From Escherichia coli (GTDB lineage Bacteria; Pseudomonadota; Gammaproteobacteria; Enterobacterales; Enterobacteriaceae): a stretch of DNA of 64,000 bases. This document shows, piece by piece, positions 3,001-4,614 of this stretch. Location of the stretch: NCBI RefSeq assembly GCF_030013205.1, contig NZ_CP122648.1; one strand, written 5' to 3'. Numbering within the stretch: position 1 is the stretch's first letter; every line of letters begins with the position of its first letter. A program made the position numbers.

Positions 3001-4614
3001 TATTTAAATTTGAAAGGAACTCTTTATGAGTGAAATGGTATTTTGTCGCGGATGCGGCAAGGAAATACATAAAGATGCCACATCCTGCCCCAATTGTGGA
3101 GCACCTCAAAGAACAGCAAGTTCAAAAAGCAGAATGACAGCCGCACTACTGGCTTTCTTTTTAGGTGGTCTTGGAGCACACAAATTTTATTTAGGTAAAG
3201 TGGGGCAAGGATTCCTTTACCTTATTTTTTGCTGGACATTCATTCCGGCAATCGTGGCATTTATTGAGTTTTTTATCTATCTATGCACCTCTGATGAAGA
3301 CTTTGCCCGCAAATATGGCTAATGCCTAGTGGGCGAATCAGAATGACAAACCCGCAGCGTAAAAACTGCGGGTTTTCTTTTTGCTACCCTCACAAATGAG
3401 GACACCATACATAAGCAATAGGCATAACAGATCGATGCAATAAATCCGATCGATAAAAACGATCGATTTGTTATCATATCGGCAGCAGTAACCACACAAG
3501 AGGTGCCGCAAATGACGCAAAATGTACGATGCAAAAATTGCAACAAACTACTTGCCCGCGCCTCATTTCACTACATTGAAATAAAATGTCCGCGCTGCAA
3601 AACACTTAACCAGATAACGAGAGCCATCGAGCACCCCACACACATGAGGAGTTATGACCGTGGGGATCGCAATCCAGCACCAACCAGCACATATACCGGA
3701 ACACACTAAGGTTTATCAGACTGACAATGCCACGCTCTGTCGTGGGAATGCGCTGGAAATATTGCCGCTGATTGAGCCAGAAAGCATTGATGCCTTAATC
3801 ACTGACCCGCCTTACAGTTCGGGTGCGACACACAAGGCCGGACGCACCAACCAGGGCAGCCATGCAAAATATCTGAACGGCGAGAACCTTCACCGCTTTG
3901 ATGGGTTCGCTGGTGAAAACATGGACGCCCGTTCGTGGGCTTACTGGACACAATTATGGATGGCACAGGCACACCGTGCAGTCAGGCCGGGCGGTTATGC
4001 CCTGGTATTTACTGACTGGCGACAACTACCAGCTTTAACCGATGCGTTTCAGGCCAGTGGCTTTACATGGCGCGGCATCATTGCGTGGAACAAGGGGAGG
4101 GGGTCACGAACACCCCATACGGGGTATTTCAGGCATCAGTGCGAATACATCGTCTGGGGCAGCAAAGGCCATTTAGATAAATCGCCTTCGGGGCCGTTCG
4201 ACGGTTGCATGACGTACCCGGTTATCCCGTCAAAGAAAATGCACCCGACCGGAAAACCAGAAGAACTAATGGCGGAACTGGTCAGGACTGTGAATAGTGG
4301 CGGAACAGTCCTTGATCCTTTTATGGGGTCAGGGACAACGGGTGTGGCTGCACTGAAAGCAGGGCGAAAATTTATTGGTATAGAAACCAGTGATCATTAT
4401 TTTGAGGTAGCAGCGCAGCGGCTTCGAGAGACTATTACCACAACCATTTCGGCTACATAAGACAAAGCCCACATTTTTTTGCGGGCTTGTATATCATTAC
4501 TGATGTGGACAGTTTGTGGATGTTTATAAGAAATAAGCTAATAGAAACAATTCGTTAGCTTTACAAAAAACGCGCCCGAAGGCGCGTTGGCGATACACTC
4601 AATATAAAGGACTA

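What the first reader, a model, noticed from the sequence alone, without database searches (positions are those of the whole stretch)
3430..4460. Mu mom-like module with a methyltransferase in place of Mom
Three closely spaced GATC sites lie upstream of a Com-like zinc-finger gene whose 3' end overlaps the start of a beta-class DNA methyltransferase gene. This mirrors the Mu mom operon (Dam-sensitive promoter, Com-dependent translation of the downstream gene), but the modification enzyme is an ordinary amino-methyltransferase rather than Mom. It is probably an anti-restriction module expressed late; the target sequence is unknown. The Mu mom architecture and Com function are from memory.
Basis: partly seen in the sequence, partly recalled or inferred. 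Interest (0 to 1): 0.6.

Follow-up and report, generated by a model that had tools for sequence, protein, structure and literature searches.

The report
Com-controlled phage DNA methyltransferase cassette
A prophage remnant in this E. coli chromosome carries a phage Mu com-mom-type control cassette driving an ordinary DNA methyltransferase instead of Mom, which is a real but already recognised arrangement.

Summary
Three GATCGAT sites (3430, 3448, 3461) lie upstream of a 65-aa Com zinc-ribbon gene (3512-3709). Its 3' end overlaps a beta-class N6/N4 DNA methyltransferase gene (3660 or 3654 to 4460).

The control elements are related to Mu's at the sequence level:
- The GATC spacing (18/13 bp) is the same as in the Mu mom OxyR site.
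- This stretch gives the best OxyR-consensus match in the 64 kb.
- The published bipartite Com RNA-binding motif occurs once in the window, directly abutting a stem-loop that buries the methyltransferase ribosome-binding site and conserved GTG start.

The module sits at the right end of a degraded P2-like prophage between pheL and raiA. It is intact in phage Chuche and present in at least 170 complete E. coli genomes.

It is not new in kind. Com plus a methyltransferase in place of Mom is published for FluMu, Pnm1 and Hia5, for phage B3, and for the P2-like phage KS5. RefSeq already annotates both genes here.

Two points differ from Mu. A sigma-70-like promoter overlaps the GATC sites, with no room for a Mu C-type site and no Ogr box. 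The same cassette is found fused to four unrelated modification enzymes.

The methyltransferase's target and the timing of its expression remain unknown.

The parts
3348..3385 (+). Intrinsic terminator after the upstream TM2-domain gene. It isolates the module as its own transcription unit.
   Evidence: 10-bp stem at 3348-3375 followed by a T-run.
3418..3467 (.). Predicted Dam-sensitive OxyR binding site containing three GATC sites (3430, 3448, 3461; spacing 18/13 bp).
   Evidence: best OxyR-consensus matches in the whole window (15/20); aligns with the Mu mom OxyR region, with the same spacing. GATC columns invariant (p=2e-6).
3450..3477 (+). Predicted sigma-70 promoter: -35 TCGATA 3450-3455, 16-bp spacer, extended -10 TGtTATCAT 3469-3477. 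Predicted transcription start near 3484. It overlaps GATC2 and GATC3.
   Evidence: the only promoter-like site in 3300-4620; in TGnTATCAT only the free position n varies (T/G/A) among the window, L029 and the Yersinia locus L086.
3512..3709 (+). com: 65-aa CCCC zinc-ribbon protein, homologue of the Mu translational activator Com (SD GAGG 3500-3503).
   Evidence: PF10122, E=1.1e-11. (53% identity to Mu Com, 4 Cys invariant). (phrog_13819 gpCom, E=2e-17).
3618..3635 (+). Predicted Com RNA target: small hairpin 3618-3629 and bipartite motif GAGAGCC-AUC-GAGCACC (3619-3635). Its last CC belongs to the 5' arm of the next stem.
   Evidence: the only match to GAGNNCC-N2-3-GAGNNCC in 64 kb on both strands (0.14 expected). 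Motif from PMC6483171; fold.
3634..3665 (+). Translation-inhibition stem-loop: arms CCCCAC (3634-3639) and GUGGGG (3660-3665) around a 20-nt loop. The loop holds SD GAGGAG (3646-3651) and ATG 3654; the conserved GTG start lies in the 3' arm.
   Evidence: -16.2 kcal/mol, z=-2.3; arms conserved in about 20 distinct cassettes with diverged loops, loop length fixed at 20 nt, and one compensatory U-A to C-G change relative to Mu.
3660..4460 (+). Beta-class N6/N4 amino DNA methyltransferase, probably m6A. 266 aa from the conserved GTG 3660; RefSeq starts it at ATG 3654 (268 aa). Orphan: no nuclease gene nearby.
   Evidence: PF01555. (M.HpyAVI 5hek, E=1e-20). (phrog_67, E=5e-83). (PADLOC MTase_II, E=7e-64). 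GTG is the only start shared by all relatives.
4465..4488 (.). GC-rich hairpin directly after the methyltransferase stop codon. Probable end of the transcription unit and of the prophage.
   Evidence: terminator-like hairpin, scored on the minus strand; the next gene is chromosomal raiA.

Best explanation
This is a self-contained, two-gene phage DNA-modification cassette of the Mu com-mom type, carried as cargo at the attR end of a P2-like prophage.

Proposed mechanism:
1. Transcription starts at a sigma-70-like promoter that overlaps a Dam-methylation-sensitive OxyR site with three GATCs. OxyR bound to unmethylated sites would shut the promoter. Dam methylation would exclude OxyR and allow transcription.
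2. The mRNA first yields Com.
3. The methyltransferase start (SD and GTG) is locked in a stem-loop.
4. Com binds the bipartite GAGNNCC motif immediately 5' of, and overlapping, the stem. This opens the stem and allows translation of a beta-class, probably N6-adenine, DNA methyltransferase.
5. The enzyme most likely methylates phage DNA so that progeny escape restriction in the next host. The tight double control implies that uncontrolled expression harms the host.

Shown here: sequence homology of Com, of the GATC/OxyR site, of the Com target and of the stem-loop, and the methyltransferase class.

Inferred, not shown: OxyR binding and its direction of effect, Com dependence of translation, the anti-restriction role, and the enzyme's target.
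For: - Com homology.
- DNA-level alignment of the whole control region with Mu.
- GATC spacing 18/13, as in Mu.
- Top OxyR-consensus score in the window, above the proven Mu mom and agn43 sites.
- GATC columns under selection.
- Unique bipartite Com SELEX motif abutting the stem.
- Same two-hairpin layout as Mu.
- Stem arms invariant over diverged loops, with one compensatory change.
- The same cassette lies in front of Mom, C5, D12-class and beta-class enzymes.
- The only characterised Com-coupled enzymes, Mom and Hia5/Hin1523/Nma1821, are promiscuous anti-restriction enzymes (PMC3299994).
- The module is intact in the isolated P2-like phage Chuche and conserved in Yersinia.
Against: - No experiment is available; all regulatory steps are inferred.
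- The OxyR site spans about -66 to -17 of the predicted promoter. That geometry fits activation as well as repression.
- The stem is only 6 bp plus an inner helix, and its z-score is modest (-2.3).
- Both stem arms lie in coding sequence (Com residues EHPT and RG), so part of their conservation could be protein-level.
- The same methyltransferase family occurs without Com, after ogr in a P2-like prophage and in a Mu-like lysis cassette. Com control is therefore not intrinsic to the enzyme.
- Natural variants lack the triad (L026-L028) or lack GATC2 (L012).
- The host prophage here is degraded, with a frameshifted integrase and no capsid genes.
Confidence: 0.7

Rival explanations
1. The module is a phase-variable lysogenic-conversion gene, not a lytic-cycle function. 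As at agn43, Dam and OxyR compete at the triad and produce heritable ON and OFF lysogens. ON cells methylate the chromosome at the enzyme's motif, which would make this a 'phasevarion'.
For: - Triad geometry (x/13 spacing) and OxyR score resemble agn43.
- The promoter looks constitutive (extended -10) and overlaps the site.
- No Ogr box and no room for a C-type activator site.
- The cassette has its own terminator-bounded unit next to other cargo-type genes (hok, TM2).
Against: - The homologous Mu site is not known to phase-vary.
- Com coupling suggests toxicity control rather than steady expression.
- Other prophage methyltransferases in E. coli methylome studies are reported silent (PMC5778455, PMC4659465), though none of those is this enzyme.
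- No methylome data were found for strains that carry it.
Confidence: 0.15
2. In this genome the module is an inert leftover of a decayed prophage and is never usefully expressed.
For: - The integrase is frameshifted, and capsid and most tail genes are absent.
- Some copies elsewhere carry a truncated methyltransferase ORF (L009, L022).
Against: - Both ORFs and every control element are intact.
- The sequence is 100% identical in seven complete genomes and about 98.5% identical in many more.
- The cassette carries its own promoter and terminators, so it does not depend on the rest of the prophage.
Confidence: 0.1
3. The GATC triad works without OxyR, for example through a direct effect of methylation on RNA polymerase at the -35 and spacer, or through SeqA binding to hemimethylated sites after replication.
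For: GATC2 lies in the -35 hexamer and GATC3 in the spacer. Dam-sensitive promoters of this kind are known, for example the IS10 transposase promoter (established knowledge).
Against: The conserved ATAG element upstream and the full 37-bp OxyR-consensus match, plus homology to the Mu site, which is established in the literature as an OxyR site.
Confidence: 0.05

Closest known systems
Bacteriophage Mu com-mom operon (Dam/OxyR-gated promoter, Com-activated translation of Mom)
   Same: - Homologous Com: 53% identity, CCCC zinc ribbon.
- Three GATCs with 18/13 spacing in an OxyR-type site.
- Com target followed by a stem-loop that holds the SD, with the GTG start in its 3' arm.
- com overlaps the downstream gene.
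   Different: - The cargo is a beta-class SAM methyltransferase, not Mom.
- The last GATC to com distance is 51 nt against 78 nt, so there is no room for a C-activator site with a downstream promoter. A sigma-70-like promoter overlaps the GATCs instead.
- The stem loop is 20 nt rather than 11 nt, and the closing pair is C-G rather than U-A.
- The host element is P2-like, not a transposable phage.
com plus non-specific m6A methyltransferases of Mu-like prophages: Hin1523 (FluMu), Nma1821 (Pnm1), Hia5 (Drozdz et al. 2012, PMC3299994); phage B3 ORF47/ORF48 as cited there
   Same: A Com homologue followed by a DNA adenine methyltransferase in the position of mom. Their proposed role is broad anti-restriction under Com control.
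   Different: - Those enzymes were aligned by their authors with Dam-type enzymes (M1.DpnII, EcoKDam). This one is beta class (PF01555).
- It shows no sequence similarity to a D12-class Com cargo from this search (the Pfam D12 match is E=0.37).
- Its specificity is unknown.
- It lies in a P2-like, not a Mu-like, element.
Burkholderia P2-like phage KS5 gp21 (Com translational regulator) and gp20 (N-4/N-6 DNA methylase) (Lynch et al. 2010, PMC3091744)
   Same: A P2-like phage with a Com gene overlapping a PF01555 methyltransferase gene.
   Different: - KS5 carries the pair among tail genes, not at the att end.
- The non-enterobacterial Com cassettes sampled here have no GATC cluster; KS5 itself was not inspected.
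- The regulation was not analysed in that paper.
agn43 (flu) Dam/OxyR phase-variation switch of E. coli
   Same: Three GATCs (19/13 spacing) inside an OxyR site next to the promoter. The OxyR-consensus score is similar (14/20 against 15/20).
   Different: - At agn43 the site lies at and downstream of the start of the annotated IsrC leader transcript. Here it covers the -35 and spacer.
- Phase variation is unproven here.
M.EcoGI and M.EcoGII, silent prophage-borne non-specific beta-class adenine methyltransferases of E. coli (PMC5778455)
   Same: Beta-class, prophage-encoded, orphan. Reported as unexpressed in lysogens and harmful when constitutive.
   Different: - Different protein (349 aa against 266-268 aa).
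- My text search of that paper turned up no mention of a Com gene.
- Non-specificity is not shown for the enzyme here.

Membership tests
Mu-type Com translational-control cassette | Com homologue with a four-cysteine zinc ribbon | tested here: met
   PF10122 E=1.1e-11. 53% identity to Mu Com, with C7, C10, C26 and C29 invariant.
Mu-type Com translational-control cassette | The 3' end of com overlaps the start of the regulated gene | tested here: met
   com ends at 3709. The methyltransferase starts at 3660 (GTG) or 3654 (ATG).
Mu-type Com translational-control cassette | Com RNA target (GAG-N2-CC repeats in or next to a small hairpin) immediately 5' of the inhibitory stem | tested here: met
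   GAGAGCCAUCGAGCACC at 3619-3635 is the only match in the window. The motif is from PMC6483171.
Mu-type Com translational-control cassette | Stem-loop that sequesters the SD and start codon of the regulated gene | tested here: met
   Predicted stem 3634-3665. Arms conserved with a compensatory change relative to Mu. In silico only.
Mu-type Com translational-control cassette | Translation of the downstream gene requires Com | not testable with these tools
   Needs translational fusions with and without Com.
Mu mom operon in the strict sense | The regulated gene encodes Mom | tested here: not met
   The cargo is PF01555 / phrog_67, not Mom phrog_1384.
Mu mom operon in the strict sense | C-activator site and weak promoter between the GATC region and com | tested here: not met
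   The last GATC to com ATG distance is 51 nt against 78 nt in Mu, too short to hold both.
Dam/OxyR methylation-sensitive switch (mom, agn43) | Cluster of GATC sites inside a sequence matching the OxyR tetramer consensus | tested here: met
   15/20 match, the best in 64 kb; proven sites score 13-14/20. Spacing 18/13 as in Mu.
Dam/OxyR methylation-sensitive switch (mom, agn43) | OxyR binds only the unmethylated site and changes transcription | not testable with these tools
   Needs gel shifts on methylated and unmethylated DNA, and reporter assays in dam and oxyR mutants.
Beta-class N6/N4 amino DNA methyltransferases | Catalytic (D/S)PP(Y/F) motif N-terminal to the SAM-binding FxGxG motif, with a PF01555 match | tested here: met
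   DPPY at 51-54 and FMGSG at 223-227. PF01555. Solved relatives M.HpyAVI and CcrM.
Beta-class N6/N4 amino DNA methyltransferases | Methyl transfer to DNA and a defined target | not testable with these tools
   DPPY favours N6-adenine by established motif rules. The target is unknown.
Hia5/Hin1523-type non-specific adenine methyltransferases | Sequence homology to that Dam-like (D12) family | tested here: not met
   Pfam MethyltransfD12 E=0.37. No BLASTP similarity to a D12-class Com cargo.
P2 Ogr-dependent late promoters | TGT-N12-ACA dyad centred near -55 | tested here: not met
   Read directly from 3380-3480. The only TGT is at 3469-3471, and no ACA lies 12 nt downstream of it.

The most novel reading that the evidence does not exclude
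The Dam/OxyR triad sits directly on a constitutive-type promoter, so the cassette could behave like agn43. Lysogens would then switch heritably between OFF (OxyR bound, GATCs unmethylated) and ON (GATCs methylated, Com and methyltransferase made). That would give E. coli a prophage-borne, epigenetically phase-variable orphan methyltransferase, a 'phasevarion' driven by one methyltransferase controlling another.
Probability: 0.15. Interest if true: 0.65.

Novelty: new member of a known kind. Interest (0 to 1): 0.3.

Why it matters
This is a clean natural example that the Mu com control unit is a portable cassette. The unit comprises the Dam/OxyR-gated promoter, Com, the Com target and the masking stem. 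Phages of different types place it in front of whichever DNA-modification enzyme they carry: Mom, C5, D12-class or beta-class methyltransferases.

For this locus, three practical points follow:
- The methyltransferase is probably silent in ordinary culture and would be missed in methylome surveys.
- Its real start is probably GTG 3660, not the annotated ATG.
- The RefSeq name 'Com family DNA-binding transcriptional regulator' misdescribes a homologue of an RNA-binding translational activator.

If the enzyme proves promiscuous, like the other characterised Com-coupled enzymes, it would be a small (266 aa) candidate tool enzyme.

Tried and rejected
- **M.EcoGIX.** My recollection that this might be M.EcoGIX was wrong: that enzyme is plasmid-borne and specific for single-stranded DNA.
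- **STM5308.** My recollection that Salmonella STM5308 was a Dam/OxyR-controlled methyltransferase was also wrong: it is listed as a sugar transporter and showed no Dam control.
- **M.EcoGII/M.EcoGI.** Considered as the same enzyme and rejected: 349 aa, a different protein.
- **Ogr-dependent late promoter.** No TGT-N12-ACA dyad is present.
- **Mu C-type activation.** The spacing is too short.
- **Restriction-modification or other defence system.** PADLOC matches only the methyltransferase, and no nuclease gene is adjacent; the next gene is raiA.
- **Rfam.** No family covers the Com target or the stem. The only match in 1-6000 is sok.
- **NCBIfam.** It has no model that matches Com.
- **Literature.** Searches by protein accession and for OxyR/Dam control of this E. 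coli module found nothing specific.
- **P0005.** The look-up found no contig.
- **Structure prediction.** Not run, because it would not reveal target specificity.

Full report
**Context**

The window is E. coli chromosome. Bases 1 to about 4500 are the right end of a degraded P2-like prophage inserted between pheL and raiA. An identical stretch in strain K_EC180 shows a frameshifted integrase, Cox, a replication endonuclease, ParM, an ogr-like gene and tail-fibre and baseplate genes, but no capsid genes. It then carries hok, a TM2-domain gene, com and the methyltransferase, followed by chromosomal raiA, bamD, rluD, yfiH and clpB.

In the isolated P2-like phage Chuche the same module (94% DNA identity, Com 100% identical) lies after an ogr-position regulator gene and hok, and before attP and the integrase. 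Part of the 1171-base query is found in 633 of 5,426 complete E. coli genomes, and at least 80% of it in 170.

**Observation**

- Three GATC sites lie at 3430, 3448 and 3461, each inside GATCGAT.
- com runs from 3512 to 3709 (65 aa). It matches Pfam Zn_ribbon_Com (E=1.1e-11) and PHROG gpCom. It is 53% identical to Mu Com, with all four zinc-binding cysteines conserved.
- The downstream ORF runs to 4460 and is a PF01555 methyltransferase. DPPY at residues 51-54 precedes FxGxG at 223-227, which is the beta-class order. Its best solved relative is M.HpyAVI (E=1e-20).
- The two genes overlap by 50-56 nt.

**Homology of the control region with Mu**

An alignment of the window, Chuche, a Mu-like E. 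coli prophage and Mu itself shows conservation beyond the Com coding sequence.

(a) GATC sites and OxyR.
- The Mu mom GATCs sit at locus positions 260, 278 and 291, a spacing of 18/13 bp. The window has exactly the same spacing.
- I scored the classical OxyR consensus (ATAGnTnnnAnCTAT-N7-ATAGnTnnnAnCTAT) at every position of both strands of the 64 kb. The four best matches (15/20) all fall at 3418-3463.
- On the same scale the known OxyR-regulated regions score 13/20 (Mu mom) and 14/20 (agn43).
- Across six diverged cassettes (window, L019, L029, Yersinia L086, Mu, L072), all 12 GATC columns are invariant. Only 13 of 51 neighbouring columns are (Fisher p=2e-6).
- GATC triads as such are common in this window. 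The evidence is therefore the spacing, the OxyR match and the selective conservation, not the clustering.

(b) Com target and stem-loop.
- The Com target was defined by SELEX and SHAPE as a bipartite GAG-N2-CC motif next to the translation-inhibition structure (PMC6483171).
- The pattern GAGNNCC-N2-3-GAGNNCC occurs once in the window, at 3619-3635. About 0.14 matches are expected by chance.
- It runs straight into the stem CCCCAC (3634-3639) / GUGGGG (3660-3665).
- The predicted fold is a small hairpin followed by a stem-loop that encloses SD GAGGAG and the start region. Mu has the same two-hairpin layout.

(c) Stem conservation.
- In about 20 distinct enterobacterial cassettes the stem arms are constant. 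The loop diverges in sequence but stays exactly 20 nt; it is 11 nt in the Mu type.
- The closing pair is C-G where Mu has U-A. That is a synonymous His codon change in com matched by a change in the opposite arm.

(d) Start codon.
- The Mu mom GTG start lies in the 3' arm, and the same GTG is the only start shared by all relatives.
- L029 and the Mu-like loci have no ATG there.
- The methyltransferase therefore most likely starts at GTG 3660, 8 nt after the SD, rather than at the RefSeq ATG 3654, which is 2 nt after the SD.

**What differs from Mu**

- The last GATC lies 51 nt from the com ATG here, against 78 nt in Mu. That leaves no room for a C-activator site plus a downstream promoter.
- There is no P2 Ogr box.
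- The only promoter-like site between the upstream terminator (3348-3385) and com is -35 TCGATA (3450-3455) with extended -10 TGtTATCAT (3469-3477). GATC2 lies in the -35 hexamer and GATC3 in the spacer.
- Among the window, L029 and Yersinia, the only variable base in TGnTATCAT is the free position n. This supports the promoter call.
- The same 'short' layout occurs in Mu-like E. coli prophages (L030-L054).
- OxyR bound here would cover about -66 to -17. By homology I predict repression when the sites are unmethylated, but this geometry does not exclude activation. 'Late' expression is therefore unproven.

**A portable cassette**

Eighty IMG/VR loci that encode Com relatives carry four unrelated enzymes directly after com:

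| Cargo after com | Loci |
|---|---|
| Mom | 35 |
| Beta-class N6/N4 methyltransferase | 26 |
| D12 (Dam-like) methyltransferase | 10 |
| C5-cytosine methyltransferase | 8 |
| No match to these four | 1 |

- Closely related Mu-like prophages carry either Mom or a C5 methyltransferase behind an almost identical Com, target and stem. The sequences diverge just after the GTGGGG start region.
- Non-enterobacterial cassettes lack GATC clusters.
- Conversely, the same beta-class methyltransferase family occurs without Com. One case (80% identity) follows ogr in a P2-like E. coli prophage. Another (62% identity) lies inside the lysis cassette of a Mu-like Salmonella prophage.
- Some copies of the window's family have lost the triad by a precise deletion (L026-L028). 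One has lost GATC2 (L012). Two have a truncated methyltransferase ORF (L009, L022).
- A Yersinia kristensenii genome carries the same baseplate-hok-com-methyltransferase block beside ihfA and pheT, with the triad, promoter, Com motif and stem all conserved.

**Mechanism**

My best explanation (confidence 0.7) is a Dam/OxyR-gated, Com-unlocked DNA methyltransferase whose role is to modify phage DNA against restriction.

The anti-restriction role is inferred from what is known of other Com-coupled enzymes. [quoted passage not shown] The DPPY motif suggests N6-adenine. The target cannot be read from the sequence.

Rivals:
- a phase-variable lysogenic-conversion methyltransferase (0.15);
- an inert remnant of the decayed prophage (0.1);
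- Dam control that does not involve OxyR (0.05).

A restriction-modification or other defence reading is rejected, because no nuclease partner is present.

**Comparison with what is known, and novelty**

Com plus a methyltransferase in place of Mom is published for FluMu, Pnm1 and Hia5, and that paper notes the same for phage B3 (PMC3299994). The P2-like Burkholderia phage KS5 is listed with a Com regulator overlapping an N-4/N-6 methylase (PMC3091744). RefSeq and the Chuche record already name both genes here.

I found no paper on the Dam/OxyR triad, the promoter overlap or the Com target of this E. coli P2-type module. These are details of a known kind.

Verdict: a real feature, correctly read by the first stage. 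It is a new member of a known kind, of modest interest (0.3).

Noticed in passing
window 2603-2890: A hok/sok-type toxin-antitoxin locus lies just upstream of the module. The hok-family ORF is at 2750-2890. An Rfam sok match at 2603-2760 scores 44.8 bits, below the gathering score of 59. The same hok gene travels with com and the methyltransferase in phage Chuche and in Yersinia.
   Followed up: partly
window 3026-3322: A 98-aa protein with an N-terminal zinc-ribbon-like CxxC...CxxC and a TM2 membrane domain lies between hok and com. It is a common phage cargo protein of unknown function (phrog_10292). It is absent at this position in Chuche and Yersinia.
   Followed up: partly
window 3654 vs 3660: There are two likely annotation problems. 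RefSeq starts the methyltransferase at ATG 3654, but the start conserved in all relatives is GTG 3660, inside the stem. RefSeq also names Com a 'DNA-binding transcriptional regulator', although Mu Com is an RNA-binding translational activator.
   Followed up: yes
L030-L054 (IMG/VR Mu-like E. coli prophages); L004 2930-4210: Closely related Mu-like prophages carry either Mom or a C5-cytosine methyltransferase behind a near-identical Com, target and stem cassette. The sequences diverge a few bases after the GTGGGG start region. This points to cargo exchange at the translation start.
   Followed up: partly
L026, L027, L028 (about 2420-2500); L012: Natural regulatory variants exist. Three loci have a clean deletion that removes all three GATC sites and the -35 hexamer but keeps the -10 element. 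One locus has GATC2 mutated to GAAC. These would be useful natural controls for the Dam/OxyR model.
   Followed up: no
L090 2651-3795; L088 2807-3753: The same methyltransferase family occurs without Com. In a P2-like E. coli prophage it lies directly after an unusually long (109 aa) ogr gene. In a Mu-like Salmonella prophage it lies between the holin and the endolysin.
   Followed up: partly
window 223-1920; L086 1-1632: A 565-aa baseplate-type protein (phrog_2258, weak VgrG-like match) precedes hok-com-methyltransferase both here and in Yersinia kristensenii. The right-end block may therefore move or persist as a unit after the rest of the prophage decays.
   Followed up: no
window 16660-16696: A palindromic 14/20 match to the OxyR consensus (ATAGCCGATAAACATGGTCGCAAAAAATCGATGCTAT) is the next-best site in the window. 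By coordinate offset it lies near or within kgtP. It contains no GATC.
   Followed up: no
window 2413-2446: Another tight cluster of three GATC sites (2413, 2431, 2443) lies in the non-coding stretch upstream of the hok/sok locus. Its significance is unknown, and GATC triads are generally over-represented in this window (10 observed against 1.5 simulated).
   Followed up: no
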